Source: a virus
IMG/VR virus record: IMGVR_UViG_3300040856_003274
Coordinates: 32,001 to 96,000 of that record
Strand: one strand, 5' to 3'
Length of the DNA: 64,000 nucleotides
Notes under the pieces: generated by a model
Database searches by the model: none
Told to the model about the DNA's origin: nothing
The model's input: the letters and a program-made list of their open reading frames with translations, nothing else
In this document: one piece after another, positions 24,356 through 63,644 of the stretch
How positions within the stretch are numbered: the stretch's first letter is position 1
How the letters are laid out: each line of letters starts with the position of its first letter
Program-made: the position numbers and the translations under genes

Positions 24356-25123
24356 TTATAGAGACATTACTAATCTAGCGTAATCTTCTGCTTTAGCGAG
24401 CTCTACGGCGGTATTTACTCCGTGGAGCTCGCGAACGGCTTCTCCTCTCAAGATCGGACAAAGTATTTTAATTTTTTTCCTGTACGCGTATTCGATCATA
24501 TCTGTGAGGTAATACTCCCCCTGCGCGTTGTCTGTCCCTACCGTGTCGAGCGCCTCGAAAAGGAGCTTAGCGTCTACACGGTACAAGCCTGTATTGACCT
24601 CTTTGACTTCCAACTCTTCATGTGAGCAGTCTCTCGCTTCGCGGATAGCGCAGAGGTTACCTTTCTGATCTCTCAGTAACCGCCCACACATATAAGAGTA
24701 TTGGTCCCTCTCAGCGCCCACCACTAACATCTTACAGTCCTCAGAAGGTTTCTTAAGATCGAGCATAAGCTGTGCAGACAGGTTAGGTGTATCTCCTGAG
24801 ATGATCCACACATCGCCGTTAAGATTACCTAGCTCCTTACGAGCACTCATTACAGCATCTGCTGTCCCCCTCTGTTCTTCCTGTAGAGCCCATGAGATTA
24901 CATCGCTCTTAATGTGCTTTTGTACGGTGCGGATTACAGCATCTGCTTCATGTCCTACGACGATGATCACTTTCTCCATACCTGCTTTAAGGGCTGAGCG
25001 GGCAACTCTTACGATCATAGGAACACCGAGGACAGTATGTAAGACTTTAGGTTTGCTTGAGCCCATACGAGTACCTTTACCTGCGGCAAGAATAATCGCG
25101 GTTTGGGGTTGGGTTGTTTTCAT
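24356..25123 (-). CDS. glmU: GlmU N-terminal uridyltransferase domain only
   Basis: ILAAGKGTRMGS.KPKVLH, QEEQRGTADAV, EVNTGLY, NAQGEYYLTD, GVNT; the protein ends before the hexapeptide acetyltransferase domain. Confidence 0.88.
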   Translation of the reverse strand: MKTTQPQTAIILAAGKGTRMGSSKPKVLHTVLGVPMIVRVARSALKAGMEKVIIVVGHEADAVIRTVQKHIKSDVISWALQEEQRGTADAVMSARKELGNLNGDVWIISGDTPNLSAQLMLDLKKPSEDCKMLVVGAERDQYSYMCGRLLRDQKGNLCAIREARDCSHEELEVKEVNTGLYRVDAKLLFEALDTVGTDNAQGEYYLTDMIEYAYRKKIKILCPILRGEAVRELHGVNTAVELAKAEDYARLVMSL

Positions 25124-25176
25124 GCGGTTACTCCAAGATTAGGTTTACTAGAGCCTAAATAAGAAAAGTAGTAAAC

Positions 25177-25236
25177 TCCAGGCAGAAAGCCCCCCGCCGT
25201 AGCAATCCTAAGATCACTAGGGCGGGGGGCTTTCCT
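25177..25236 (-). terminator. Island-terminal hairpin (terminator-like)
   Basis: GAAAGCCCCCCGCC...GGCGGGGGGCTTTC stem right after the 25238 stop. Confidence 0.7.
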
Positions 25237-25237
25237 T

Positions 25238-25480
25238 TTAATCGTCTGACTCTTCCTCGTCCTCACCATCGTGGTCGTGGTCGTTCCACTCTTCGAGTGT
25301 ATCGACCATGCTACAGCCACAGCCACCCATGTAGCCGTGGTCGTTGTCGAGGATCATTTGCAGTTGCGCGACCCAATACGCGTTAGCGCGGGCTTGCGCG
25401 TGGTCAGGTACGAGGCTCGTAGCCTCTGAAGCGAGCTCTCTCATCTCTTGGATGATTTGCTCAAAACGATATGCGCTCAT
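25238..25480 (-). CDS. Small acidic hypothetical protein (island 1)
   Basis: AGGAG RBS following a hairpin element. Confidence 0.7.
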   Translation of the reverse strand: MSAYRFEQIIQEMRELASEATSLVPDHAQARANAYWVAQLQMILDNDHGYMGGCGCSMVDTLEEWNDHDHDGEDEEESDD

Positions 25481-25504
25481 AGTAGTCTCCTATGTGTGAG
25501 CTTT

Positions 25505-25593
25505 TAAGATTAAGGGAGTCTCTAGGACTCCCGACACCTTATCCCCCCACCGTCTGATCTGCACTAGGGCATCTCAGAGGGTGAGGGTTTAAG
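25505..25593 (-). repeat. Intercistronic double-hairpin element
   Basis: CCCTCACC-CTCTGAGATGCCCTAGTGCAGATCAGA-CGGTGGGGG...GGTGTCGGGAGTCCTAGAGACTCCCTTAATCTTAA; near-identical to 63018-63107. Confidence 0.85.
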
Positions 25594-25626
25594 ATTAGGG
25601 TGAGGGTTTCCTCGTAGAGGAAAAGG

Positions 25627-26010
25627 TTAAGGCTGTGTCGCCAACCTAACCTTGTCGATCTCTACGAGTATGGAAAAGCCTTCCTCAGCGATCTCCTCAA
25701 CGCTCTTGACTTGCTTGAGCGCGAGGTCTTCACGCTCAAAAGTCACCGTATCTGAAGATTTCGTGACTTTATAACCGACACAGAGCGCACGAACGCGCCC
25801 CATTACGGTTGCGCTCGCCCCGTTCCAACAGTCACCCTTGAAGGTGACTTTGAGTCCACCTTTAAGGGGCTCAATCACCGCCAAACGGCATTGGTAACAG
25901 TTGACGTAGATGACCTTATCAAGAGGTAAAACCTCTAAGTTGCCTTTCGCAAGGGAACCTGAGGTTTTACCCAAGATGTGTCTCCACATCTCTTTTTCCA
26001 CTTTTCGCAT
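25627..26010 (-). CDS. Hypothetical protein (island 1)
   Basis: AAGGAG RBS following a hairpin element. Confidence 0.7.
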   Translation of the reverse strand: MRKVEKEMWRHILGKTSGSLAKGNLEVLPLDKVIYVNCYQCRLAVIEPLKGGLKVTFKGDCWNGASATVMGRVRALCVGYKVTKSSDTVTFEREDLALKQVKSVEEIAEEGFSILVEIDKVRLATQP

Positions 26011-26028
26011 TTGATCTCCTTAAATGCT

Positions 26029-26121
26029 TTAAGATTAAGGGAGTCTCTAGGACTCCCGACACCTTATCCCCCCACCGCCCAACCTGCTTAGAGCAGATTA
26101 GAGGGTGAGGGTTAAGGTGTT
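26029..26121 (-). repeat. Intercistronic double-hairpin element
   Basis: ACACCTTAACCCTCACC...GGTGGGGGGATAAGGTGT-CGGGAGTCCTAGAGACTCCC-TTAATCTTAA. Confidence 0.85.
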
Positions 26122-26160
26122 TTAGACTCGGTAGCGGGCGCGGGTTAGAGGAGGTGCGTT

Positions 26161-26679
26161 TTACTTAACTTCCTTCACCCATAGGTTACCATCGCGAAGG
26201 TAACCTCGAATTTGAAAAAAATCCGAGGTTACCTTCACTTGGTACGTCCCCCTCTTGGTGAGTTGCTCACCTGGAGGAAGATCCTTCCTCACCATGTGCA
26301 AGACTGTCCCCCCTCGCGGAGTAACAAGCCTTTCACACATCTCTGCTATATCGGAAGCGATAGCTAATGTTGTTGTGTTCAAAACGTAGGTGCTGAACAC
26401 AATCTCAAACGAGTTTACAGGGAGCTTGTTAGAGACTCCCTCCCACCCACTCACATCATCTTCCCCGTTGAACGGGTCATACGCGTAAACGCGATGACCC
26501 ATCTTGCGGAGCGCATCAGCATGGCGACCATGCCCTGCGCCGAAGTCCAAGATGTACATACTGTCATCATAGTCTCCGAAAAACTCTAACAGCTCTTTAT
26601 TGGGCTTCGCATTTTTCATTGCGGTCTTGGCTGATGCCGCTTCAGAGTACAACTCCGAGTCCGTTTTTTGCTCGCTCAT
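26161..26679 (-). CDS. Class I SAM-dependent methyltransferase (island 1)
   Basis: ILDFGAGHGR, YAYDPF, FEIVFSTYVLN. Confidence 0.8.
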   Translation of the reverse strand: MSEQKTDSELYSEAASAKTAMKNAKPNKELLEFFGDYDDSMYILDFGAGHGRHADALRKMGHRVYAYDPFNGEDDVSGWEGVSNKLPVNSFEIVFSTYVLNTTTLAIASDIAEMCERLVTPRGGTVLHMVRKDLPPGEQLTKRGTYQVKVTSDFFQIRGYLRDGNLWVKEVK

Positions 26680-26770
26680 AGTAACTCCTATTAATGTGAG
26701 CGTTTTAGATTAAGGGAGTCACTAGGACTCCCGAAAACGATGGGGAGCGACCGCCCCCCTTTACTAACAT

Positions 26771-26794
26771 TACGGATTACTTTTTTCCCCCGAC
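26771..26794 (-). promoter_or_regulatory. 24-bp conserved promoter-like box
   Basis: Exact GTCGGGGGAAAAAAGTAATCCGTA; its final TA begins a TAnnnT hexamer, then a GGG hairpin, RBS and gene. Confidence 0.8.
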
Positions 26795-26911
26795 ATTACA
26801 GTTTCTCGCCACGGCCCACGCGCATACGCGCACGCGTGTACATGTGTGCGTCATGTACGCGAACGCACGCCAGCGACATGACGCTCAAGCGCGAGCGCGA
26901 GCCCCCCACGA

Positions 26912-26954
26912 CGTATAGAATTCAGACAGGCAATCCGTTTTAGAATTCTATACG
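26912..26954. promoter_or_regulatory. Central inverted-repeat hub
   Basis: CGTATAGAATT-N21-AATTCTATACG. Confidence 0.8.
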
Positions 26955-26995
26955 CGGTATAGCAGGCGCACCTACGCGTACACGCGTGTGGTTTT

Positions 26996-27019
26996 GTCGG
27001 GGGAAAAAAGTAATCCGTA
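26996..27019 (+). promoter_or_regulatory. 24-bp conserved promoter-like box
   Basis: Exact copy, divergent from the 26771 copy. Confidence 0.8.
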
Positions 27020-27093
27020 ATGTTAGTAAGGGGAGGCACTGAGCTTCCCATAACTTTAATGGCTCTCTGAGCCCATTTATGAAAGGTATTCGC

Positions 27094-28140
<1,047 letters not shown>

Positions 28141-28183
28141 GAGCGGAGCTGAGCTGAGCTAAGGTCGCGTGTGTTTGAGTGAG

Positions 28184-28275
28184 ACACCTTAACCCTCACC
28201 TTCTGAGATGTCCTAGACAGATCAGACGGTGAGGGCTTGAGGTGTCGGGAGTCCTAGAGACTCCCTTAATCTTAG
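28184..28275 (+). repeat. Double-hairpin element
   Basis: Same family; inner stem is TGT-CCTAG-ACA versus TGC-CCTAGT-GCA in other copies. Confidence 0.85.
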
Positions 28276-28314
28276 CTGAGGCGCGTGCTTACGATTACTG
28301 AACCTCCCACGAAA

Positions 28315-28382
28315 ACAGAAAGCCCCTCACCCTCTAATCTGCTCTAAGCAGGTCAGAGCGGTGAGGGGCTTTCTGTCGGGAC
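28315..28382 (+). terminator. Island-terminal hairpin ending TTTCTGTCGGGA
   Basis: ACAGAAAGCCCCTCACC...GGTGAGGGGCTTTCTGT stem. Confidence 0.75.
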
Positions 28383-28481
28383 TCGTTGCTTTTCTTACGT
28401 TACCGCGCCCCAATAATCTTTTGACTTTAATATTAAGAGTATGACCGCGAGGGGGATAGACTAGCTGAAAAGAGTGCTCTA

Positions 28482-29288
28482 ATGAAACCGACCTTTGTTA
28501 TTCTTGTGCTTATCGACATAGTAGACTCGACCAAGTTTATTGAGCGAGTAGGGGATATGCACGCCTCTGAGGTGATGAGAGTATATGACCGTATCTTTAG
28601 AGGTCTTCTTATCAAGTACGAGGGGCTAGAGATTGACAAGACGGACGGGGCGCTGTTGCTATTTGAGACAATGAAAGATGCGCTTAACTACATCCAAGCC
28701 TACCACAGTATGGTGGAGAGACATCTAGGGCTAAAGTCTAGGGCAGGTATTCATTGTGGTTATGTCATCATGCACTCTAACTCACAGTTGTTTGTATCTA
28801 GGGGAGCTAAGCCCATTGAGGTTGAGGGGATACAGAAGGCTATCGCGGCTCGGATTATGAGCTTAGCTGGGGGAGGTCAGACCTTTCTTAGCAAGCGTGC
28901 AGGTGAGTATGCCGCATCGGTGCGCGGTAAGCTCTTAATGAGGGATTTAGGTATGTGGAAGCTCAAGGGAGTTAAAGACCCTATGCAGTTGTACGCTATA
29001 GGTGATGATATCAACCGCCTCGCCCGCCCCAAAGAGACAGAGAAGGTTAAGCTAGTGAAACCTCCTAAGCTAACCCCTAGAGAGCGCCGTGATAGGTTTC
29101 TTAGGCGCTACGTATACTTCCCTATCGCCGTCTTTTCTTTTTACGTTTGGGTGTCGTGGTTAGCTTTCTTAGAGTATTTCGGCGCTTTCGGCTACGGGTG
29201 TGAAGTGTTCAAGACCACGAAGCTCGTTATGGACTATATGACGCTACCATTTTACAAAGCCTTTTGGGTGTGGCTGTTCAACCTGTAG
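28482..29288 (+). CDS. Class III nucleotidyl cyclase with C-terminal TM segment
   Basis: DIVDST and KTDG metal Asp residues, RAGIHCG, AARIMSLAGGGQTFLS, LKGV. Confidence 0.88.
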   Translation: MKPTFVILVLIDIVDSTKFIERVGDMHASEVMRVYDRIFRGLLIKYEGLEIDKTDGALLLFETMKDALNYIQAYHSMVERHLGLKSRAGIHCGYVIMHSNSQLFVSRGAKPIEVEGIQKAIAARIMSLAGGGQTFLSKRAGEYAASVRGKLLMRDLGMWKLKGVKDPMQLYAIGDDINRLARPKETEKVKLVKPPKLTPRERRDRFLRRYVYFPIAVFSFYVWVSWLAFLEYFGAFGYGCEVFKTTKLVMDYMTLPFYKAFWVWLFNL

Positions 29289-33386: not shown

Positions 33387-33479
33387 GATTTTTTAGCGAA
33401 AAAAGGGCGTATAGAATTGTGCGAACGATATGCGTGCGCGGGAGCGTGCGTACACGCGTGCGTGAGCACTAGGCTGAAT

Positions 33480-33961: not shown

Positions 33962-34020
33962 GACTGAGCGAGCGAGACTGAGCGAAGCGCCTCACCTTGT
34001 GAGAGCGCGTCTGTGGTGAT

Positions 34021-34085
34021 ACAGAAACCCCTCACCCCCCAACCTGACTAGCAGGATGGGCGGTGGGGGGTTTTCTGTCGGGAGT
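34021..34085 (+). terminator. Island-terminal hairpin ending TTTTCTGTCGGGAG
   Basis: ACAGAAACCCCTCACC...GGTGGGGGGTTTTCTGT. Confidence 0.75.
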
Positions 34086-37976: not shown

Positions 37977-39314
37977 ATGCAAACCATAGTAATAGACACT
38001 TCGGTGTTCATCCACGATCCAAACGCGGTAGACAACTATCAAGGCCACAGGGTCGCTGTCCCCATCTACGTCATTATGGAGCTTGATGACTTAAAAGACG
38101 CTAAGAAAGGTGAGGTGTCACAGCTTGCTCGTAAAGCCTCTAACAAGATCCTAATGTACCTCAACGAGGACTCGTTCGACGGTGAGCTAGAGGTCATCGG
38201 TTTAACGGAAGCTGATTTAGGTGTGGACACGCTCGACAAGTCTTTTATGGACACCAACCGTAAGATGGACACTCTCATCTTACAGAGTGCGATTGGTCAA
38301 AAGCGAGCTGGACATGAAGTGCTGCTACTAACCAAGGATATTAATCTTAGGATACTCGCGCTCTCTGAGGGCTTGCAGGCTGAAGATTACGACATCGACC
38401 ATGTGTCTATGAACGAGATATGGAGAGGCTCTCAAAAGATTAACACTGACCAGCTTTCTTCTGACGCTTTCGCTGACGTGGTGGAGTCTTATTGGAAGGG
38501 CGCGGTTAACCTAGACACAGTTAGAGAGCACCTCAGAGCTGACCCTATCCAAAACGAGTTTATCGTCTTTGATGAGGGCGGTAAAACTCACTTGTTTAGG
38601 CACGACAAGGGCAAGTGCGTACCTATCGACAAGAAGGAGACGCATTGTAATCTTAAGGCGCGTAATCTTGAGCAGACAATGGCGCTTAATCTGCTAGGAC
38701 GTAGCGACATCGAGCTCTGCTGTATCATCGGCAAAGCGGGGACGGGCAAGACGATACTTGCTTTGGGCTCAGCCCTAGCTCAGCTCGGCAACGGCGCGGG
38801 TTATTACGACCGTATAATCTTAACCAAGCCCGTTGTAGATGTGGGGCGCGGTATCGGTTTTCTTCCAGGGGGCATCGGTGAGAAGATGGAGCCTTGGATG
38901 CAGAGCTTCTTCGACAACCTCGACCAGCTCCTCCCTCCTACAGGGTCTGATAAAGAGAAGGGGGCGCATAAGGCTGAGAGCACATGGCTACCACTCCTTG
39001 AGAGCGGTGTGATTGAGATACAGCCTATCAACACAATTCGAGGGCGCTCTCTGAGTAGGTCATTCATGATCATTGACGAGGCGCAGAACCTCACTAAGCA
39101 TGAGGTCAAGTCTATCATTACGAGAGCCGCAGAAGGCACTAAGGTAATCTTAATGGGTGATCCCTACCAAGTAGACAACCCTTACCTTGACAAAAACAAT
39201 AACGGGCTCGTCTATGTCGTGGAGCGCATGAAAGGTCAGGACTGCTTCGGCGCTACGATGCTCAAGCGGTCTGAGAGATCAAGACTGTCAGACCTCGCGG
39301 CTGATCTCCTCTAA
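37977..39314 (+). CDS. phoH: PIN-PhoH (PhoH2) protein
   Basis: VIDTSVFIHD and LLTKDINLR (PIN); GKAGTGKT, IGFLPG, IRGRSL, IIDEAQN, GDPYQVD (PhoH). Confidence 0.93.
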   Translation: MQTIVIDTSVFIHDPNAVDNYQGHRVAVPIYVIMELDDLKDAKKGEVSQLARKASNKILMYLNEDSFDGELEVIGLTEADLGVDTLDKSFMDTNRKMDTLILQSAIGQKRAGHEVLLLTKDINLRILALSEGLQAEDYDIDHVSMNEIWRGSQKINTDQLSSDAFADVVESYWKGAVNLDTVREHLRADPIQNEFIVFDEGGKTHLFRHDKGKCVPIDKKETHCNLKARNLEQTMALNLLGRSDIELCCIIGKAGTGKTILALGSALAQLGNGAGYYDRIILTKPVVDVGRGIGFLPGGIGEKMEPWMQSFFDNLDQLLPPTGSDKEKGAHKAESTWLPLLESGVIEIQPINTIRGRSLSRSFMIIDEAQNLTKHEVKSIITRAAEGTKVILMGDPYQVDNPYLDKNNNGLVYVVERMKGQDCFGATMLKRSERSRLSDLAADLL

Positions 39315-40796: not shown

Positions 40797-40860
40797 CTCC
40801 CGACAGAAAACCCCCTCACCGCCCAACCCGTCTAGGACAGGTGGGAGGTGAGGGGGTCAT
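40797..40860 (-). terminator. Island-terminal hairpin ending TTTTCTGTCGGGAG
   Basis: CCCCCTCACC...GGTGAGGGGG stem downstream of the vWA gene. Confidence 0.7.
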
Positions 40861-40909
40861 CAAACCAAGAGCAGGTTGTCGTCGTCAGCGCGTCAGCGCG
40901 TCTCAAGTC

Positions 40910-43166: not shown

Positions 43167-43211
43167 ACGTATAGAATTGGCAATGGGATTTGGTGTCTGA
43201 ATTCTATACGT
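43167..43211. promoter_or_regulatory. Central inverted-repeat hub (core in reverse orientation)
   Basis: ACGTATAGAATT-N21-AATTCTATACGT. Confidence 0.8.
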
Positions 43212-43355
43212 GGTGGGAGGGGTCGGGCTCGCGTGTGTGGGTGTAATGTGCGGGTAATGTTACGCGCTATGCGAGCTCGCGAGCTCGCGCTACCTTAGGC
43301 GCTGGCTCGCGAGTCTGTATGCGAGCCCGTAATGTTACACCTACACACGGCTAAT

Positions 43356-44665: not shown

Positions 44666-44730
44666 ACAGAACGGTTGAGAGCCCCCCTTCCTGCGCTTGC
44701 GTAGGTCGGGGGGCTTCTCTGTCGGGAGTA
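44666..44730 (+). terminator. Island-terminal hairpin ending TCTGTCGGGAG
   Basis: AGCCCCCC...GGGGGGCT stem followed by TCTCTGTCGGGAG. Confidence 0.65.
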
Positions 44731-44733
44731 ATC

Positions 44734-44788
44734 CCCTAACCTTAAGCCCTAACCTTAAGCCCTAACCTTAAGCCCTAACCTTAAGCCC
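44734..44788 (+). repeat. 13-bp tandem repeat CCCTAACCTTAAG x4
   Basis: Read directly. Confidence 0.9.
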
Positions 44789-45648: not shown

Positions 45649-45792
45649 CTCTCGGAGCGTCAGCTCTCGGAGCGTCAGCTCTCGGAGCGTCAGCTCTCGG
45701 AGCGCCTGCTCTCGGAGCGTCAGCTCTCGGAGCGTCAGCTCTCGGAGCGCCTGCTCTCGGAGCGCCTGCTCTCGGAGCGTCAGCTCTCGGAG
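45649..45792 (+). repeat. 15-bp tandem repeat CTCTCGGAGCG(TCAG/CCTG) x9.5
   Basis: Read directly; starts just after the 45647 stop. Confidence 0.92.
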
Positions 45793-45799
45793 GATTTCT

Positions 45800-48700
45800 T
45801 ACTGTCTAAAATCTGTATGGGGGGTCGCGGGTGCAGGTACGGGGGAGGAGGTTGGAGGTACTCATACACTCGCGAGGCTGAGGAGGTCTTGAGGTTGAAG
45901 GCGCTCATACACTCGCGAGGCTAGACCGCTTGAGGCTTGGGAGTGTTCATACAAGTAGAGAGTGTGGCTACCTTGTGGAGGTGCTCATACAGAGGTGGCG
46001 GGTGGCGGGTGGAGCTAGACTGTGAGAGTGTTCATACAGAGAGGGAAGAGGAGGAGGGGAAGATGGAGGCACTCATACAGAGAAGGTGAGGGGAGGGGGA
46101 AGGTGGAGGCACTCATACAGAGAGGGAAGAGGAGGAGGGGAAGATGGAGGCACTCATACAGAGAGGGAAGAGGAGGGGGAAGGTGGAGGCACTCATACAG
46201 AGAGGGTGAGGGGAGGCTTCGGTGAGGGTGTTCATACAGAGGCGGTGGGCGAGGGTGAGGTTGGGTGAGGTTGGGTGAGAGTGTTCATACATTACTCTCT
46301 TCAGTCCTCCAAGACGTGTGGGTGCTCATACAGAGTAGAGGAGGACGAGCTACCCGCTGACCTTAGGGAACAGGGGAGAGGGAGGAGGGGGAGAGGGGGT
46401 CGCGTATGTGAGGTGTAGGTGTTCATACTCGCACGCGTACAACGCTCAACGCTCAACGGTTGACCTTAGGGAACAGGGGAGGTGGTGCAACCCTCAACGC
46501 TCAACGGTTGACCTTAGGGAACACACCCAATAACGCTCAACGGTCGCAACGCTCAACGGTATGTGTTGACGCTAGGGAATGAGCACAACCTCCAACGCTA
46601 ACATTAGATGTGGGTGTTCATACATACGCGAAGCCGTGGCTCTGTATGAGTTGACCTTAGGGAACAGCAGAGAAGCTAGAGGCGCGTTGACCCTGTAGCA
46701 TTAGGTGTGGGTGTTCATACAGAGGCTGGCTAAAATCTGTAACGCGTGCGCGTATGCGCCATGTGCGCCTGACCCTCAACGCTATAAGTTGACCTTAGGG
46801 AACAGGTGACCGCCTGAGTAGTTGAGCTAGAGGTCAGGTGAGGACTCGGCCCTGTAATATTAGATGTGAGCGTTCATACAGGGTGGGGGGGCTGTGGTGA
46901 TCTCGCATAGCCTTGTGTGACGTTAGGGAATGGAGAGGGCTCAACCCTAACATTAGATGTGGGCGTTCATACAAGGTGGGGGGCTAGGCGCGTGAGCCAG
47001 CTTGACATTAGGGAATGGGAGGAGGTGAGAGGGCCTCTCAATCAATCAACGACAAAGCCCTCTCATGTACAGGTTCTAGCCAGGCAGGTTTTCCAACACC
47101 GCGCTTAACGAGTCTTTAGAACCTGTATAGCGCACAAGAGAGGCTCGGTCGCCTCTCAAAATCGGCTGAGCTAGAGTAGTTTAAGTGGGGACATTCATAC
47201 ACGCGTGTGTCTCAAAAGCCCCATTTTACGGCACTTAGGAAGTTGCCGATTTTGATAGGATGAGCGAGGCGAGGGCTAGAGAGGCTCAAAAGGGGCTCAG
47301 AGAAGGCTCTAATGTTATGTAGGTGTTCATATAACGAGGGGTGGGCGGGTGCGGTGAGTGAGGCGCGAGTGGAGGTGGCGCGAGGGTAACCCTAATAACC
47401 TACTTAGAACCTGTACAGGCTGTGGTGGGGTGTAGCTGAGCTGAGCCGAGACACGCTGACGTTAGGGAACAGGTTATGGCTTACTGAGCCTGTGGAGGCT
47501 GACATTAGATGTGGGCGTTCATACAGACAGGGTGTTTAGAACCTGTAGCGCGGAGGCGAGCTCTCGCCTCTTACTGACTCGCTCAACACTATGAGCTGAC
47601 GTTAGGGAATGGGTAGCGGGCTTGAGCTGAGCTTGGGCCTAACTGAGTCTGACATTAGGGAACAGTTGGGCGGGAGGGGTCGGTGGCGACCCTAACGTTA
47701 GATGTGGGCGTTCATACTACTCTTTATCTAAAATCTGTATTAGGGGGTTCGGGCGCATCTGTAGAGGCGGGCTCTCGTATGTGTTGACGTTAGGGAACAT
47801 CTAGACAGGGGGCAGAGCTGAGAGCAGACACGCTCAGCCCAACTCGCAATATTAGATGTGGGCGTTCATATAATGAGCGGTGGGCTGGTTGGGCTCACTC
47901 CTTGTACACTTGACGTTAGGGAACAGCTCGCTTGTCTTGAGCGCCCCGCGCCACCTCTCGCTCCTATGTGATGTGGGCGTTCATACAGACAGGCGGGGCT
48001 CGCCCTTAAGACACGCTCCTTGACATTAGGGAACAGGGAGACAGGTTGCGCTCTCTCCTGTCACGCTCTGAGACACCTTGACTCGTTCGCTCAAGGCTAC
48101 TAGAACCCGTATAGTTAGAACCTGTATAGGTCGCGCTCAGCCTCTCTGCTTGAGCCTTGAGCAGGGCTCTAGTGGGTGGATGATGGGGACATTCATACAC
48201 GCGTGGGGGGCTCAAAAGCCCCAAAATAGGGCTCAAAATGGTTGCCGTCTTTGATAGAGAGGCGTTTTGCCCCCTCTGAGCCTCTCTCTGAGCCCTCTAG
48301 CGGTAGCTGTTATAGGTATTCATATAAGAGTGGTGGCTGTGAGGCTGAGCGAGCTTGCGCAGGCTCGCGTGGAGTCTCCTAGTGCTTCCGCGAGCTGTCG
48401 AGAGAGACGCGAGGGTGACCCACCCGTTGGCTTGACGTTAGGGAATGGGCAGAGGCTATTTAGAACCTGTATGATGAGCAAGCACCCGCCCTCTGACATG
48501 ATGTCGGTATTCATATAATGAGCGGTGAGCCCCGCCTCGCCTCCCTAACCTTAGTTTGACATTAGGGAACAGTGGGCGAGGGTGGGCGAGGCGGCACAGC
48601 ACCCCTAATGTCATGTCGGCGTTCATATAGCGAGCGGTGGGCTGTCTCCTTCAAGGCAAGCTGGCTTGACGTTAGGGAATGGTAACGGGAGCTGACCTTG

Positions 48701-51700
48701 ACCCTCACCTGCTGTGGCTTGACATTAGGGAACAGTGGACGAGCTCTCCTGAAGCTAGGCTAGAACCTGTATAATCTAAAATCTGTATTAGGGGGCTCGG
48801 AGGGCTACCGACCCCTCCCGTAATATTAGATGTAGGCGTTCATATAAAGACGATCTCGCCTTGCCCCTCTAGACTGGTAGACGCTAGGGAATAACTAGCC
48901 CTATCTAAAATCTGTATTAGGGGGCTCGGAGGGGCTATCGCACCCTCTACGGTCTGATGAGAGCGTTCATACAAGGTCGGTGCTGAAGCAAGGCTCTCGT
49001 ATGTGTTGACGTTAGGGAACAACAGGTCGGCTCGAAATCTCCCTGTGGCGAGCGCCCCTTTACAGGTTCTAGCTAGCCTTGTACGGCTGAGGGCGGGTCG
49101 AGTAGCTCAAGCAGCACCCCACAGGCTAAGTTGACATTAGGGAACATTACAGCGGCCTTAGCGTCAGCGTCTCTAACATTAGCCTAATATCATGTCGGCG
49201 TTCATATAAGGGCTGAGCCGAGATCGTCCTAGCTCGTATCTGCCGTGGCTTGACGTTAGGGAACAGGCGGGCAGAGGTGAGCCAACCTAAGAGATAAAAT
49301 GTAAACATTCATACAAGGAGCTAGGGCTACGCTCAGATGACCCAATATACCTGACGTTAGGGAATAGCTCAGCCTGACAGGTAGCCCTTTTGCCTCGCTT
49401 GATGTTAGGGAACATCAGGGCTACCCTCGCGCTTGTCTGAAGTCGGCTTGAGATACGCGGAGCGCCCCTCTCACGTTCGGATGTAAACCGCGCCCACACG
49501 CTAAGCTCTACTAGAACCTGTATAGAGCCCGACTCAGAGTGCTTTGTTGGGGACATTCATACCCGTAGAGAGGGCCAAAACACCCTCCAAGAGGGCTATT
49601 TTTGTTGGCGACTTTGATAGGATGGGGCTCAAACCCCCGAAAATACGGTACTTTTTGTTGGCGACTTTGATAGACCTATTTTTCGTGGGATCATTCATAG
49701 CGTGTGCGGGTGAGAGCGGCTTTTTGGCTCGCCTTTTGGAGAGACTAGAACCTGTATAAACTAGAACCTGTATGGTACTAGAACCTGTATAATACTAGAA
49801 CCTGTATGGTACTAGAACCTGTATAATCTCTCTTATGTGGGACCATTCATAGCGTGTGCGGGTGAGGGTGGCCTTTTGGCTCGCCTTTTGGAGAGACTAG
49901 AACCTGTATAATACTAGAACCTGTATAATACTAGAACCTGTATGGTACTAGAACCTGTATGGTACTAGAACCTGTATAATACTAGAACCCGTATAATCTC
50001 TCTTATGTGGGATCGTTCATAGCGTGCGTATGTGAGAGGACGCGCTCCCCCTCCTAGACGATGTAGGCGTTCATACATACTTAGAACCTGTATGGTACTA
50101 GAACCTGTATAATACTAGAACCTGTATGGTACTAGAACCTGTATGGTACTAGAACCTGTATAATACTAGAACCTGTATGACCTGAGCCTCCCCCTAGGTG
50201 ATGTAGGTATTCATACAGGGGGGGCTGACCCCCCCCCTCCCCTGTGAGTTGACCTTAGGGAACAGCAGACAAGCCTAGAACCTGTATAATATTAGAACCT
50301 GTATAATACTAGAACCTGTATAATACTAGAACCTGTATGACCTGAGCCTCCCCCTTGTCCCTTGTGTTGACGTTAGGGAACAGGGGGGGTGAGCCTCCCC
50401 CTAGAGGATGTCGGTATTCATACAAGGAGGGCGAGCCCCTTTTAGTTGAAGGTTAGGGAACAGTAAAACGTCTCAGATCGCTCTCTGAGGCGCTTTAGCT
50501 CTCAAGCCTGCTCTACCCCTAGCTTAAGGACTCTAAAGAGCACACGAGCGAATTTAGAGCCCTCCCTCGAAGGCTTTAAGCTGGTTATGCGACCCGCCAA
50601 AAGACCCCCTAGATGATGTAGGTATTCATACAGGGCGGGCTGAGGGTGGCTCAGGGCAACCCCTTGTGTTGAGGTTAGGGAATGGGAGAGGCTGTTTAGA
50701 ACCTGTATAATATTAGAACCTGTATGACCTGACCCGACCCTGCCCCTTGTGTTGACGTTAGGGAACAGGTGGCCTGAGCCTCCCCCTAGATGGTGTCGGT
50801 ATTCATACAGGGCGGGCTGAGCCTCCTCCTCCCTTGTTGAGGTTAGGGAATGGAAGGAGCTGTTTAGAACCTGTATGGTACTAGAACCTGTATGACCTGA
50901 CCCGACCCTGCCCCTTGTTGACATTAGGGAACAGGTAGCCTGACCCTCCCCCTAGATGGTGTCGGTATTCATACAGGGCGGGCTGAGCCTCCTCCTCCCT
51001 TGTTGAGGTTAGGGAATGGAAGGAGCTGTTTAGAACCTGTATGGTACTAGAACCTGTATGGTACTAGAACCTGTATGACCTGACCCGACCCTGCCCCTTG
51101 TTGACATTAGGGAACAGGAGGCTAGGCTGACCCCCTAGAGGATGTAGGTATTCATACAAGGCTCCCCCTAGGCGCTCCCCCTCCCTTGTTGAGGTTAGGG
51201 AATGGGAGAGGCTGTTTAGAACCTGTATGGTACTAGAACCTGTATGACCTGACCCCCCCCCTCCCCTTGTTGACATTAGGGAACAGGAGGGCTAGGCTGA
51301 CCCCCTAGAGGATGTAGGTATTCATACAGGAGGGCTGAGCCTCCCTCTAGGCGCACCCTCTTGTTGACATTAGGGAATGGGAGGAGCTGTTTAGAACCTG
51401 TGTAATATTAGAACCTGTATGACCTGACCCCCCTCCCCTTGTGTTGACATTAGGGAACAGGAGGCTAGGCTGACCCCCTAGACGATGTAGGTATTCATAC
51501 AGGGTGGGCTGGGGGTGGCTCAGGACGCACCCTCTTGTTGACACTAGGGAACAGGGGGCTGTTTAGAACCTGTATAATATTAGAACCTGTATAGCATGGG
51601 CTCCCCCTAGGCGCTCCCCCTTGTGTTGAGGTTAGGGAACAGGAGGGCTAGGCTGACCCCCTAGATGGTGTCGGTATTCATACAGGGCTCCCCCTAGGCG

Positions 51701-52960
51701 CTTCCCTTGTGTTGAGGTTAGGGAATGGGAGAGGCTGTTTAGAACCTGTATGGTACTAGAACCTGTATGACCTGACCCCCCCTCCCCTTGTGTTGACGTT
51801 AGGGAACAGGAGGGCTAGGCTGGCCCCCTAGACGATGTAGGTATTCATACAGGGTGGGCTGGGCCTCCCCCTAGGCGCACCCTGTGAGTTGACATTAGGG
51901 AATGGGAGGAGCTGTTTAGAACCTGTATGACCTGAGCCTCCCCTCCCCTTTGTTGACGTTAGGGAACAGGCGGCTAGGCTGACCTCCTAGATGGTGTCGG
52001 TATTCATACAGGGTGGGCTGGGGTGGCTCAGGACGCACCCTGTGAGTTGACATTAGGGAATAGGAGAGGCTGTTTAGAACCCGTATGACCTGAGCCTCCT
52101 CCTCCCCTTGTTGACGTTAGGGAACAGGTGGCCTGACCCTCCCCCTAGGCGCTCCCCTGTGAGTTGACGTTAGGGAACAGGTGGCTAGGCTGACCCCCTA
52201 GATGGTGTTGGTATTCATACAGGTGGCCTGAGCCTCTCAGGACAGCCCCTCCCTTGTTGACATTAGGGAATGGGAGGAGCTGTTTAGAACCTGTATGACC
52301 TGAGCCTCCTCCTCCCCTTGTTGACGTTAGGGAACAGGCGGCCTGAGCCTCCCCCTAGAGGGTGTCGGTATTCATACAGGTGGCCTGAGCCTCCCTCTCC
52401 CCTGTGAGTTGACATTAGGGAACAGGTGGTCTGACCCTCCCCCTAGGCGCTCCCCCTTGTTGACATTAGGGAACAGGTGGTCTGACCCTCCCCCTAGAGG
52501 GTGTCGGTATTCATACAGGTGGGCTGGGGGTGGCTCAGGACAGCCCCCCTTGTTGACGTTAGGGAACAGGAGGGCTAGGCTGACCCCCTAGAGGATGTAG
52601 GTATTCATACAGGGGGGGTGGGCCTCCCTCTAGGCGCTCCCCTTGTTGACGTTAGGGAACAGGGGGGGTGGGCCTCCCCCTAGGCGCTCCCCTTGTTGAC
52701 GTTAGGGAACAGGGGGGTGGGCCTCCCTCTAGGCGCTCCCCTTGTTGACGTTAGGGAACAGGGGGGTGGGCCTCCCTCTAGGCGCTCCCCTTGTTGACAT
52801 TAGGGAACAGGGGGGGTGAGCCCCTGTGGAGCCTCCCCCTTGTTGACGTTAGGGAACAGGGGGGGTGAGCCTCCCCCTAGAGGATGTCGGTATTCATACA
52901 GGGGGTGAGCCCCTGTGGAGCCTCCCCCTTGTTGACATTAGGGAACAGGGGGGGTGAGGC
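45800..52960 (+). repeat. About 7-kb non-coding polarised multi-motif array
   Basis: Dozens of TGA(C/G)NTTAGGGAAY, ..RTTCATA(C/T) and TAGAACCTGTAT boxes, nearly all on +; no credible gene. Confidence 0.9.
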
Positions 52961-61080: not shown

Positions 61081-61201
61081 GTCCCGACAGAAAAGCCCCC
61101 ACCGCCCAACCTGTTAAAAGCAGGTTAGAACGGCGGGGGCTTTTGCTTAGTCTCTACCATCCGATCTGCACTAGGGCATCTCAGAGGGTAGAGGCTTAAG
61201 G
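61081..61201 (-). terminator. Two adjacent hairpin elements closing island 4
   Basis: 61146-61201 CTCTACC..TGCCCTAGTGCA..GGTAGAG, then 61081-61146 AAAAGCCCCC..GGGGGCTTTTCTGTCGGGAC. Confidence 0.75.
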
Positions 61202-61860: not shown

Positions 61861-61952
61861 TAAGATTAAGGAAGTCTCAGAGACTCCCGACACCTCAAGC
61901 CCTCACCTCCTAAACTGCTTAGAGCAGAATAGGTGGTGAGGGTTAAGGTGTT
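61861..61952 (-). repeat. Intercistronic double-hairpin element
   Basis: ACACCTTAACCCTCACC...GGTGAGGGCTTGAGGTGT-CGGGAGTCTCTGAGACTTCC-TTAATCTTA. Confidence 0.85.
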
Positions 61953-62418: not shown

Positions 62419-62439
62419 ATTTAGGCCGAGAGCGCACTG

Positions 62440-62530
62440 GCGTGTGCGCGTACCCATGCGCGTGTGCGCGTACCCATGCGCGTATGCGCGTACCCATGCG
62501 CGTATGCGCGTACCCATGCGCGTATGCGCG
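62440..62530. repeat. 20-bp tandem repeat CGT(G/A)TGCGCGTACCCATGCG x4.5
   Basis: Read directly; mostly alternating purine-pyrimidine. Confidence 0.9.
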
Positions 62531-62540
62531 GTAATATTAA

Positions 62541-62583
62541 CGTATAGAATTGAGACATTTAATCGGTTTGTTAATTCTATATG
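62541..62583. promoter_or_regulatory. Central inverted-repeat hub
   Basis: CGTATAGAATT-N21-AATTCTATATG. Confidence 0.8.
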
Positions 62584-62624
62584 TGTGCTATGCGGGCGCG
62601 TGCGTATCGAGCGTGAGCCTTAAT

Positions 62625-62998: not shown

Positions 62999-63017
62999 AC
63001 CTAAACCTTAACCCTCA

Positions 63018-63107
63018 CCTTAACCCTCACCCTCTGAGATGCCCTAGTGCAGATCAGAAGGTGAGGGCTTGAGGTGTCGGGAGTCCTCGCGACTCCCTTA
63101 ACCTTAA
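63018..63107 (+). repeat. Intercistronic double-hairpin element
   Basis: Near-identical to the reverse complement of 25505-25593. Confidence 0.85.
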
Positions 63108-63505: not shown

Positions 63506-63529
63506 TCAACAACCCTTCATCAAGGCTTA

Positions 63530-63598
63530 ACACCTCAAACCCTCACCTTCTGATCTGCTTTAAGCAGTTTAGACGGTGGGGGTTTAAGTGTCGGGAGT
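63530..63598 (+). repeat. Hairpin element closing island 4
   Basis: AAACCCTCACC..CTGCTTTAAGCAG..GGTGGGGGTTT..GTGTCGGGAG. Confidence 0.8.
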
Positions 63599-63644
63599 TT
63601 AAATATTTCTTTTGTAATCTTACTCACACAGAGGAGGTGCTACC

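What the first reader, a model, noticed from the sequence alone, without database searches (positions are those of the whole stretch)
25505..25593. Family of about 13 covarying hairpin elements, nearly all ending in TGTCGGGA
Seen at 25177, 25505, 26029, 28184, 28315, 34021, 40797, 44666, 61081, 61146, 61861, 63018 and 63530, plus the small hairpin alone at ~26710. All lie in the sense of island transcription. The long bulged stem shows compensatory changes (TGC/GCA vs TGT/ACA; CCTCACC/GGTGAGG vs CTCTACC/GGTAGAG; ACACC/GGTGT vs ACAGA/TCTGT) and G-U pairs. The intercistronic type adds GGGAGTC-N5-GACTCCC plus TTAAYCTTA before the RBS; most terminal copies have a T-rich 3' arm. TGTCGGG also starts the promoter box. 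Inference: structured RNA processing and stabilising sites (RNase III-like), or attC-like single-strand recombination sites.
Basis: partly seen in the sequence, partly recalled or inferred. Interest (0 to 1): 0.76.

Follow-up and report, generated by a model that had tools for sequence, protein, structure and literature searches.

The report
Phage gene-cassette hairpin punctuation marks
A large uncultured marine phage marks the end of each small accessory gene in four islands with one conserved ~65-nt hairpin; this probably acts on the mRNA (terminator or intercistronic stabiliser), and related phages have cut, flipped and reshuffled these genes at the same repeats.

Summary
The window lies in a 168-kb fragment of an uncultured estuarine or marine myovirus-like phage. 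It carries 13 copies of a 58-69-nt bulged hairpin, plus one mini-hairpin alone. All copies sit in four accessory-gene islands, and all are co-oriented with the genes. Eleven end in TGTCGGGA, where 1.4 are expected by chance.

A covariance model finds no copy in the other 104 kb. It finds about 60 unique copies in homologous islands of related metagenomic phages. Pairing is kept through compensatory changes: 122 doubly changed cells against 48±8 in shuffles. G·U pairs outnumber A·C. The sense strand folds better in 42 of 51 copies, which points to a single-stranded sense molecule, most simply RNA.

There are two classes. Terminal type B has a U-rich 3' arm plus a downstream T-run and looks like an intrinsic terminator. 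Intercistronic type A lacks the U-tract and adds a mini-hairpin, TTAAYCTTA and a Shine-Dalgarno sequence.

Between relatives, one inversion, one gene-order permutation, one translocation and several cassette gains or losses have breakpoints in or at the elements. No integrase, transposase, RNase III or phage RNA polymerase was found, but the record is only about 40% complete.

The closest analogues are T4-type PeSL cassettes, phage morons and T7 RNase III sites. RNA cleavage and site-specific recombination remain untested.

The parts
25505..25597 (-). Type A composite. Long hairpin 25529-25597, mini-hairpin 25514-25532, TTAATCTTA 25505-25513. Lies between the 127-aa and 80-aa genes.
   Evidence: R1 75.2 bits. 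Fold -46.3 kcal/mol, z -5.3. Terminator-like scan hit on the mini-hairpin.
26030..26121 (-). Type A composite after the methyltransferase gene. Left breakpoint of the inversion relative to L010, L014 and L017.
   Evidence: R1 86.1 bits. blastn blocks overlap at 26028-26118.
26707..26732 (-). Mini-hairpin GGGAGTC-N5-GACTCCC plus TTAATCT, with no long hairpin, in the 5' leader of the methyltransferase gene. Joined to the promoter leader at ...ATCGTTTT|CGGGAGTC.
   Evidence: It is the only such solo copy in the own 168-kb record and the nine relative loci scanned.
28183..28274 (+). Type A composite after the 353-aa gene. Right breakpoint of the inversion, exactly after TTAATCTTA at 28274.
   Evidence: R1 91.7 bits. 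Fold -57.5 kcal/mol, z -8.75. Breakpoint.
28314..28381 (+). Type B terminal hairpin with U-rich 3' arm GGGGCTTTCTGT, followed by GCTTTTCTTA.
   Evidence: R1 74.8 bits. Fold -49.2 kcal/mol, z -9.4. Class features.
25177..25240 (-). Diverged type B terminal hairpin ending in TGCCTGGA. It closes the left arm of island 1.
   Evidence: Fold -43.1 kcal/mol, z -7.1. Aligned by eye and by MAFFT. Not found by R1.
34020..34083 (+). Type B terminal hairpin of the one-armed island 2.
   Evidence: R1 45.5 bits. z -4.5. Orthologous copies in L010, L014, L079 and L103.
40798..40865 (-). Type B terminal hairpin after the VWA-domain gene (island 3, left arm).
   Evidence: R1 46.4 bits. z -5.3.
44670..44727 (+). 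Diverged type B terminal hairpin after the AAA_5 gene (island 3, right arm). Followed by CCCTAACCTTAAG x4.
   Evidence: R1 19.9 bits, E 0.015. z -4.3. Tandem repeat.
61082..61149 (-). Type B terminal hairpin (island 4, left arm).
   Evidence: R1 36.3 bits. z -6.1.
61152..61193 (-). Truncated type A hairpin (CTCTACC/GGTAGAG variant) fused to the flank of the type B copy. A deletion scar where relatives carry one or two extra genes.
   Evidence: R1 37.5 bits, model positions 12-52 only. L018 and L020 comparison.
61861..61952 (-). Type A composite between the 124-aa and 194-aa genes.
   Evidence: R1 86.8 bits..
63014..63106 (+). Type A composite between the 92-aa and ~120-aa genes.
   Evidence: R1 84.2 bits..
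63529..63622 (+). Variant copy: long hairpin plus TGTCGGGA, then a T-rich tract and TAATCTTA in place of the mini-hairpin. Lies before the DUF5824 gene. Relatives carry different extra cassettes at this slot.
   Evidence: R1 67.8 bits..
26765..27025 (.). Context, not part of the family. Two divergent copies of the 31-nt box TGTCGGGGGAAAAAAGTAATCCGTAATGTTA around an inverted-repeat hub. Other copies start at 33479(+), 43075(-), 43355(+), 43461(+), 62389(-) and 62624(+). Every arm runs box -> genes -> type B hairpin, except the right arm of island 4, where no type B copy was found.

Best explanation
The elements are transcript-level punctuation for a self-contained expression kit. The kit drives four accessory-gene ('moron'-like) islands of a large marine myovirus-like phage. 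Each island arm starts at an invariant 31-nt promoter-like box.

Inferred mechanism:
- Type B copies are intrinsic terminators with an unusually long stem and close seven of the eight arms; no B copy was found after the right arm of island 4. The stem is G+C-rich, its 3' side is GGGG(C/U)UUU(C/U)UGU, and a second U-run lies 10-30 nt further on.
- Type A copies are the same hairpin with the U-tract replaced by (C)UUGAGGUGU. I infer that RNA polymerase mostly reads through them.
- A type A hairpin stays as the 3' end structure of the upstream cistron. It would act as a barrier to 3' exonucleases and, at ~27 bp, is a plausible RNase III substrate.
- The attached mini-hairpin, TTAAYCTTA and Shine-Dalgarno sequence form a standard leader for the next cistron.

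Shown here:
- The 35-100 nt of each copy are nearly identical between copies.
- Recombination between copies has inverted, permuted, deleted and inserted gene cassettes in related phages. This is the pattern described for PeSL cassettes of T4-type phages.
For: Structure:
- All 13 window copies fold far better than shuffles, z -4.3 to -9.4.
- On 54 unique copies, 82% of cells are paired against 75% in shuffles. There are 122 doubly changed cells against 47.9±7.6 in shuffles (0 of 500 reach it) and 20-50 when partners are slid by 1-3 columns.

Strand:
- On the model-based alignment, sense rows have 94 G·U and 36 A·C pairs. Antisense rows have 34 and 73.
- Twelve pair columns have two or more G·U; six have two or more A·C.
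- The sense fold is more stable in 42 of 51 copies, mean -3.6 kcal/mol.

Position:
- 55 of 58 copies have a same-strand ORF ending upstream, at a median of 18 nt.
- The next ATG lies a median of 51 nt after TGTCGGGA.
- Copies occur only inside the box-driven islands.

Two classes:
- Of 21 copies without a folding mini-hairpin, 17 have a TTT[TC]TT run within 45 nt downstream. None of 35 type A copies does.
- The 3' arm holds 5.6 T in type B and 4.1 T in type A.
- The mini-hairpin plus UUAAUCUUA scores as terminator-like.
- The mini-hairpin keeps its pairing in the most distant relative through changed bases and G·U pairs: GGGAGGCU/AGCUUUCC in L022.

Recombination:
- Window 26028-28274 is inverted relative to L010, L014 and L017. 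Both breakpoints lie in inverted type A copies.
- L015 has the order fam7-fam8-MTase where the window has MTase-fam8-fam7, transcribed in the same direction.
- A family-6 gene sits in opposite arms in L021 versus L018-L020.
- The slot at 63529 holds no gene in the window, related 153- and 167-aa genes in L018 and L020, and an unrelated 202-aa gene in L021. The crossover lies inside the hairpin.
- The 5' stem base travels with the upstream gene. TAATCTTAAACCC follows fam8 in all four genomes.
Against: - No RNA data exist, so termination, read-through, stabilisation and cleavage are all inferred.
- Stems of 22-27 bp are much longer than ordinary intrinsic terminators need. That hints at an added or different function.
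- CCCTCACC/GGTGRGGG and TGTCGGGA are conserved beyond what pairing requires, down to a relative with 60% protein identity. This suggests a sequence-specific protein partner that this model does not name.
- GGGA is conserved in type B although it has no pairing partner there.
- Some covariation may come from swapping whole apical modules between copies (gene conversion) rather than from independent compensatory mutations.
- The copies are related, so the shuffle statistics overstate independence.
- Host and RNA polymerase are unknown.
Confidence: 0.5

Rival explanations
1. The primary function is endonucleolytic mRNA processing. The long stems would be cut by host RNase III, as at T7 R-sites. 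Alternatively, a dedicated phage nuclease would recognise the stem plus UGUCGGGA. Either way, polycistronic island transcripts would be cut into monocistronic mRNAs that end in a hairpin stub and begin with the GGGAGUC mini-hairpin.
For: - The stems are ~27 bp, above the ~20-bp length RNase III needs (established knowledge), and sit between cistrons.
- Sense-strand wobble bias fits an RNA element.
- Similarity between the classes stops exactly after TGTCGGGA.
- In type A, GGGA opens a 5' hairpin that would protect a processed 5' end.
- Conservation of sequence as well as pairing points to a protein partner.
- A PIN-PhoH protein, a possible RNase, lies in the window at 37977-39314.
Against: - No RNA ends are available.
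- No RNase III gene is found in the 168 kb, and the host is unknown.
- Internal loops, which steer single cuts in T7 sites, are not conserved. Some copies have an almost perfect stem.
- A double cut in the stem would remove the protective 3' hairpin.
Confidence: 0.25
2. Type A is a composite terminator plus internal promoter, a true PeSL analogue. TGTCGGGA-N15/16-TAATCTTA would be a weaker promoter of the same class as the 31-nt box, which reads TGTCGGGG-N15-TAATGTTA. Each cassette would then bring its own promoter.
For: - The layouts run in parallel: TGTCGGGR, 15-16 nt, TAATSTTA, 3-7 nt, a G+C-rich hairpin (GGGGGGC..GCUCCCC or GGCUCAUUACGAGCC), (C)TAACATTA, then the Shine-Dalgarno sequence.
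- PeSLs have exactly this stem-loop -> promoter -> SD order (PMC2839356, PMC4122927).
Against: - The invariant core of the box, AAAAAAGTAATCCGTA, is absent from type A.
- In relatives the TGTCGGG-to-core distance varies through G-run length.
- In type A the TGTCGGGA-to-TAAT spacing ranges from 13 to 18 nt.
- TAATCTTA and TAATGTTA are genome-wide motifs on both strands and inside genes, so they are not promoter-specific.
- The spacer is itself a conserved hairpin.
- No sigma-70-like promoter is detected.
Confidence: 0.15
3. The elements are attC-like single-strand DNA recombination sites of an integron-like cassette system. A recombinase, still unfound, would fold the sense strand, cut in TGTCGGGA, and move [leader-gene-hairpin] cassettes.
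For: - The hairpin travels with the upstream gene, as attC does.
- Gene order is permuted while orientation is kept, which is hard to get by simple inversion or deletion.
- The same slot holds unrelated cargo in different relatives.
- The solo mini-hairpin junction falls at T|CGGGA, and TGTCGGG recurs at the box.
- A one-strand folding bias would also fit ssDNA.
Against: - No tyrosine recombinase, Y1 transposase or TnpB-like hit in the 168 kb.
- None among the Pfam hits on record for the relatives' called genes.
- The core is unlike GTTRRRY.
- At least two junctions are imprecise. One leaves a 32-nt remnant of the 163-aa gene's 3' end; the other cuts inside the 3' arm at 61152.
- The inversion is what plain homologous recombination between inverted repeats gives.
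- TGTCGGG lies upstream of the box, so an insertion there would not be expressed from it.
Confidence: 0.07
4. The elements are selfish miniature mobile palindromes (REP/REPIN- or MITE-like) that have spread in the phage genome and have no role in expression.
For: They form a repeated, imperfect palindrome family with a conserved flanking motif. Copy number and positions differ between relatives.
Against: - They are strictly co-oriented with genes and lie a median of 18 nt after stop codons.
- They occur only in box-driven islands and not in the other 104 kb.
- No RAYT/Y1 transposase or TnpB-like hit in the 168 kb.
- No target-site duplications were seen.
- The type A signature gave only three chance matches in the bacterial and archaeal genomes scanned, and no family member turned up in unrelated viral or metagenome contigs.
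Confidence: 0.04

Closest known systems
PeSL (promoter-early stem-loop) cassettes of T4-type phages (Arbiol et al. 2010, PMC2839356; Comeau et al. 2014, PMC4122927)
   Same: - A conserved composite intergenic motif of about 100 nt: stem-loop, then a conserved segment, then the Shine-Dalgarno sequence and start codon.
- It flanks small ORFan genes in hyperplastic regions of a large myovirus.
- Copies serve as crossover points for indels and swaps between close relatives.
- No dedicated recombinase is known.
   Different: - There is no sequence similarity.
- The stem is 22-27 bp with mismatches, against short polyG/polyC stems in PeSLs.
- No sigma-70-like promoter is detected.
- The promoter-like box sits only at the head of each arm.
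- A second mini-hairpin and the invariant TGTCGGGA are present.
- A separate terminal class (B) exists.
- The phage lineage is unrelated to T4 as far as tested.
RNase III processing sites of phage T7 early and late mRNAs (R0.3-R18.5; from my own knowledge of Dunn & Studier 1983)
   Same: Long, imperfect intercistronic hairpins in polycistronic phage mRNAs. They are co-oriented with transcription and would leave a 3' hairpin on the upstream message.
   Different: - T7 sites have a defined upper stem, asymmetric internal loop and lower stem. Here the internal mismatches vary between copies.
- Cleavage is untested.
- T7 sites are not known as recombination junctions.
- T7 sites are not a near-identical repeat family.
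Phage 'morons' (autonomous promoter-gene-terminator units; from my own knowledge of Juhala et al. 2000 and Hendrix et al. 2000)
   Same: The islands are self-contained units with their own promoter-like box and hairpin terminator. They carry accessory genes and vary between relatives.
   Different: Morons use unrelated, ordinary sigma-70 promoters and terminators. Here one standard kit is reused in every unit, and it includes an intercistronic form.
Integron attC sites (from my own knowledge)
   Same: Imperfect hairpins of 57-141 nt that follow each promoterless cassette gene. They are conserved mainly in structure, have a short conserved core at the 3' end, and fold in one strand.
   Different: - There is no IntI.
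- The core is TGTCGGGA, not GTTRRRY/RYYYAAC.
- Some junctions are imprecise.
- The array is divergent and driven by a box on each arm.
REP/BIME elements of enterobacteria (from my own knowledge)
   Same: Transcribed extragenic palindromes at 3' ends and between cistrons. They stabilise upstream mRNA, attenuate transcription, and promote rearrangements.
   Different: REPs are ~35 nt, occur genome-wide, carry a GTAG head, and are linked to RAYT transposases. Here the elements are 65-95 nt, confined to four islands, and no RAYT is found.

Membership tests
Intrinsic (factor-independent) terminator | G+C-rich stem-loop directly followed by a U-rich tract | tested here: met
   Met for type B only. 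The stem ends in GGGG(C/T)TTT(C/T)TGT, and 17 of 21 copies have a further T-run. In type A the long stem has no U-tract; only the mini-hairpin plus TTAATCTTA passes a lax scan.
Intrinsic (factor-independent) terminator | Sits at the end of a transcription unit, and RNA 3' ends map there | tested here: inconclusive
   Position is met: type B closes seven of the eight arms of the four islands; none was found after the right arm of island 4. RNA 3' ends could not be tested, because no RNA run was listed.
T7-type RNase III processing site | Intercistronic dsRNA stem of about 20 bp or more | tested here: met
   Predicted stems of 22-27 bp between cistrons.
T7-type RNase III processing site | Conserved internal loop that directs a single cut; cleavage by RNase III | tested here: inconclusive
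   Internal mismatches differ between copies, from 1x1 plus 2x2 loops to nearly perfect stems. Cleavage is not testable here. No RNase III gene is found in the 168 kb.
PeSL cassette | Stem-loop plus Shine-Dalgarno sequence in the intergenic space of ORFan-rich hyperplastic regions | tested here: met
PeSL cassette | Strong sigma-70-like early promoter inside the motif | tested here: not met
   No sigma-70-like site in 25100-28500, where shuffles give 1.8. The TGTCGGGA..TAATCTTA promoter idea is weak.
PeSL cassette | Recombination between copies causes indels and swaps between relatives | tested here: met
   An inversion, a permutation, a translocation and slot-specific cargo, all with breakpoints in the elements.
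Integron attC site | R''/R' core sites RYYYAAC...GTTRRRY | tested here: not met
   The conserved 3' motif is TGTCGGGA, and there is no inverse core at the 5' foot.
Integron attC site | Adjacent IntI tyrosine recombinase and attI | tested here: not met
   PF00589 gives no hit in the 168 kb at E<=1 and is not among the Pfam hits on record for the relatives' called genes. The record is only about 40% complete, so absence from the whole phage is not shown.
Integron attC site | Cassette boundaries always at one position in the core | tested here: not met
   Two of the five junctions examined are imprecise.
REP/REPIN with RAYT | Y1 (RAYT) transposase, and genome-wide extragenic spread | tested here: not met
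   PF01797 gives no hit. The elements are confined to window 25-64 kb.
Any Rfam family | Score at or above the gathering threshold | tested here: not met
   No hit in the whole window. Only a sub-threshold miRNA-like hit elsewhere in 25100-28500.

The most novel reading that the evidence does not exclude
The hairpin plus TGTCGGGA is the recognition site of an undiscovered phage-encoded enzyme, either a single-strand DNA recombinase or a sequence- and structure-specific RNA endonuclease. If so, the four islands form a phage-borne, integron-like cassette platform. [Leader-gene-hairpin] units would be excised, re-inserted and expressed from a standard promoter box.
Probability: 0.12. Interest if true: 0.85.

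Novelty: new variant of a known kind. Interest (0 to 1): 0.55.

Why it matters
Large uncultured phages carry many small accessory genes, and how these are expressed and exchanged is poorly understood.

Here one compact, standard kit appears to do both jobs. The kit is a promoter-like box, an intercistronic hairpin module and a terminal hairpin. It gives each cassette the same expression signals. Its repeats are also where cassettes are flipped, permuted, lost and gained between close relatives.

This extends the PeSL idea of regulatory repeats as engines of modular shuffling. PeSLs are known from T4-type phages. This lineage is unrelated, and the motif has a different architecture.

The finding offers three practical things:
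- A covariance-model handle for finding hyperplastic islands in metagenomes.
- A clean natural system for testing whether long 3' hairpins act as terminators, stabilisers or RNase III sites.
- Candidate parts (insulating hairpins, terminators) for synthetic operons.

Tried and rejected
- **RNA evidence.** The look-up of sequencing runs listed no RNA holder, so RNA ends could not be examined.
- **Read laying.** Read laying on four DNA runs showed 90-95% relatives and repeat-associated joints, for example 26702->26029 and 28210->25565. It gives no contig sequences, so per-element variants could not be read.
- **Exact pattern scans.** The type A signature and the box gave nothing in viral contigs, and the box gave nothing in metagenome contigs. 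Three genome-contig hits are chance, because R1 scores none of them.
- **Looser pattern.** CACC-N-GGTGRGGG-N-TGTCGGGA returned 7 viral loci. In the metagenome scan it matched at least 120 stretches, of which the 80 returned loci were scored. R1 confirms only L024, L040, L044, L079, L088, L091, L094 and L103, all marine relatives. The rest are chance.
- **Related loci by protein.** The search for related loci with the AAA_5 protein found nothing in IMG/VR.
- **Enzyme families in the 168 kb.** No hit for T7-like RNA polymerase (the control genomes did not ring either, so this one is uninformative), RNase III, tyrosine integrase, sigma70_r2, Y1 transposase or TnpB.
- **Large proteins.** Pfam and PHROGs gave only tail sheath, baseplate and tail hits.
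- **Alignment quality.** The MAFFT alignment misplaces the outer stem in diverged copies. I therefore also used the model-based alignment A5, which is fitted to the structure.
- **T3 promoter resemblance.** The 5' arm (TTAACCCTCAC) resembles the T3 promoter as I recall it. I rejected this because the AT-rich initiation part is missing.
- **Literature.** A string search for the motifs found only unrelated primers.
- **Failed call.** One tblastn call failed on a frame error.

Full report
**Context**

The window is bases 32001-96000 of a single 168,266-bp virus record. The record is classed as linear and about 40% complete. It encodes a tail sheath domain, a baseplate wedge and tail proteins. It has no close cultured relative: the best hit for its exonuclease is 31% identity to an acidobacterial jumbo phage. 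Near-identical DNA occurs in estuary and seawater metagenomes from many studies. The host is unknown.

**The observation**

- TGTCGGGA occurs 11 times in the window, against 1.4 expected. Each occurrence is at the 3' foot of a long hairpin read in the direction of the neighbouring genes.
- Covariance model R1, built from six copies (27 bp), recovers 12 of the 13 listed copies.
- The 13th copy (25177-25240, minus strand) is a diverged copy ending in TGCCTGGA. It folds at -43.1 kcal/mol, z -7.1.
- The copy at 61152-61193 is truncated. One mini-hairpin stands alone at 26714-26732.
- R1 finds nothing in the remaining 104 kb of the record. Rfam has no match.

**Two classes**

Type A is intercistronic and reads roughly as follows:
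- ACACCTTAA-CCCTCACC-(apical module)-GGTGRGGG-C-TTGAGGTGT.
- Then CGGGAGTC-N5-GACTCCC, TTAAYCTTA and often a third hairpin, GGCTCATTACGAGCC, with CTTAACATTA.
- Then AGGAG and the start codon.

Type B is terminal:
- The outer stem is ACAGAAAG/CTTTCTGT, so the 3' arm is U-rich.
- It has no mini-hairpin.
- In 17 of 21 unique copies a TTTTCTT run follows within 45 nt. None of 35 type A copies has one.

Seven of the eight island arms run from a copy of the 31-nt box, through one to three genes separated by type A copies, to a type B copy; no type B copy was found after the right arm of island 4.

**Relatives**

Homologues of two island proteins led to contigs of related phages. R1 finds elements in every homologous island. 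A motif scan added a few more marine contigs. Its many hits in soil and other metagenomes were chance, with no R1 score. In all there are about 60 unique copies, every one on the gene-sense strand.

TGTCGGGA, CCCTCACC/GGTGRGGG and TTAAYCTTA persist down to a relative whose marker protein is 60% identical (L022).

**Is the structure selected, and on which strand?**

- On 54 unique copies, 82% of cells pair, against 75% in shuffles.
- There are 122 cells changed on both sides, against 47.9±7.6 in shuffles (0 of 500 reach it) and 20-50 when partners are slid.
- Examples: AU 28 / GC 16; CG 32 / UA 13; UA 34 / CG 11; and the loop-closing pair UA 26 / CG 23.
- Further variants include CTCTACC/GGTAGAG and CCCCCGTCC/GGGCGGGGG.
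- On the model-based alignment, sense rows have 94 G·U and 36 A·C. Antisense rows have 34 and 73.
- The sense fold is more stable in 42 of 51 copies, mean -3.6 kcal/mol.

Caveats: the copies are related. Apical modules seem to be exchanged between copies as units. The model-based alignment leans towards the structure. With those limits, the data support a hairpin formed by the sense strand, most simply the transcript.

**Position**

- 55 of 58 copies have a same-strand ORF ending upstream, at a median of 18 nt.
- In several copies the stop codon is the first TAA of the stem.
- The next ATG lies a median of 51 nt after TGTCGGGA.

**DNA rearrangements**

- Relative to L010, L014 and L017, window 26028-28274 is inverted. 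This segment holds both boxes, the methyltransferase gene and the 353-aa gene. The homology blocks overlap within the type A copy at 26030-26121 and end exactly after TTAATCTTA of the inverted copy at 28183-28274.
- L015 transcribes fam7 -> fam8 -> methyltransferase. The window transcribes methyltransferase -> fam8 -> fam7.
- A family-6 gene lies in the right arm in L018-L020 and in the left arm in L021.
- The slot at 63529 is empty in the window. It holds related 153- and 167-aa genes in L018 and L020 and a 202-aa gene of another family in L021. The window's single copy matches both flanking copies of L018.
- Other junctions are imprecise. The window keeps about 32 nt of the 3' end of a 163-aa gene that L010 has between types A and B. 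The truncated copy at 61152 is fused to the flank of the type B copy where relatives have one or two genes.
- The 5' stem base follows the upstream gene across contexts, and the leader after TTAAYCTTA follows the downstream gene. This places the exchange zone in the conserved TGTCGGGA-mini-hairpin-TTAAYCTTA segment.

**Enzymes**

No T7-like RNA polymerase, RNase III, tyrosine recombinase, sigma-70 region 2, Y1 transposase or TnpB was detected in the 168 kb. No recombinase family appears among the Pfam hits on record for the relatives' called genes. The record is incomplete, so absence from the whole phage is not shown.

**Interpretation**

My preferred reading (0.5) is as follows.
- Type B copies are intrinsic terminators with extended stems.
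- Type A copies are the same hairpin without the U-tract. They are kept as the 3' structure of each cistron and joined to a standard leader for the next one.
- The repeats are also substrates for homologous recombination that reshuffles cassettes.

This is the logic of PeSL cassettes in T4-type phages (PMC2839356, PMC4122927) and of morons, but with an unrelated and more elaborate motif.

What is shown: family, structure, strand bias, position, the two classes, and breakpoints at the elements. What is inferred: termination, read-through, stabilisation and the recombination mechanism.

Alternatives, partly overlapping:
- RNase III or a dedicated nuclease as the main function (0.25). The stem length and the sequence conservation favour this.
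- An internal promoter in the 3' half of type A (0.15).
- attC-like site-specific recombination (0.07).
- Selfish palindromes (0.04).

The strict conservation of TGTCGGGA is not explained by any of these. It includes GGGA, which is unpaired in type B, and the same heptamer recurs at the start of the box.

**Side observation**

TAATCTTA, the core of the TTAAYCTTA segment, is the most over-represented 8-mer of the whole record:
- It occurs at 114 sites against 6.7 expected.
- TAATGTTA, TAATATTA and TAACCTTA are also enriched.
- The sites lie on both strands, inside genes and between them.
- The motif is likewise enriched in relatives.

So this part of the element is an instance of a genome-wide DNA motif of unknown role. 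That weakens any reading of it as a promoter -10 element.

**Verdict**

This is a real, well-supported element family. Its kind is known: regulatory stem-loop repeats that punctuate and shuffle phage accessory genes. Its architecture and lineage are new. Interest is moderate.

Noticed in passing
whole 168-kb record; in the window e.g. 25505, 26030, 28266, 61861: TAATCTTA/TAAGATTA is the most over-represented 8-mer, with 114 sites against 6.7 expected. TAATGTTA (67), TAATATTA (66) and TAACCTTA (42) are also enriched. Other TAA-NN-TTA variants and control patterns are not. Sites are evenly spread on both strands, equally in sense and antisense of genes, and enriched 10-30x in relatives. This is a DNA-level motif of unknown role.
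   Followed up: partly
window 26765-26795(-), 26995-27025(+), 33479(+), 43075(-), 43355(+), 43461(+), 62389(-), 62624(+): A 31-nt box, TGTCGGGGGAAAAAAGTAATCCGTAATGTTA, occurs in 8 copies that are exact over the first 25 nt. Each is followed after a few nt by a GGGGGGC..GCTCCCC hairpin. In relatives the core AAAAAAGTAATCCGTA is invariant while the G-run varies from 4 to 7. It is a likely phage-specific promoter. No sigma-70-like promoter is detected.
   Followed up: partly
window 26800-26990, 43200-43340, 62430-62620, 33405-33475: Divergent boxes flank an inverted-repeat hub, GTATAGAATTC..GAATTCTATAC. Long alternating purine-pyrimidine tracts (Z-DNA-like, partly tandem 20-mers) lie around it. 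The one-armed island has a single half-site.
   Followed up: no
window 26183-26247: A near-perfect hairpin lies inside the 3' part of the methyltransferase gene. It gives a weak sub-threshold miRNA-like Rfam hit on both strands.
   Followed up: no
window 44734-44788, 25580-25610, 63005-63031: Pieces of the hairpin's 5' arm and of the TAACCTTA motif are tandemly duplicated next to elements. Examples are CCCTAACCTTAAG x4 after the 44670 copy and CCCTCACC..CCCTCACC upstream of the 25529 and 63014 copies. This suggests slippage at the repeats.
   Followed up: no
window 45649-52960: A ~7-kb almost ORF-free array of several tandem and dispersed repeat motifs, such as TAGAACCTGTAT and TTGACGTTAGGGAAC. 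It starts about 0.9 kb downstream of island 3, and earlier notes on this genome also flag it.
   Followed up: no
window 37977-39314: A PIN_4 + PhoH fusion protein (putative RNase/ATPase) is encoded between islands 2 and 3. It is a candidate RNA-processing factor, with no tested link to the elements.
   Followed up: no
L014:10001-10536: In relative L014 the methyltransferase gene is split into 125-aa and 52-aa ORFs, so it is probably broken. Its flanking elements are intact.
   Followed up: no
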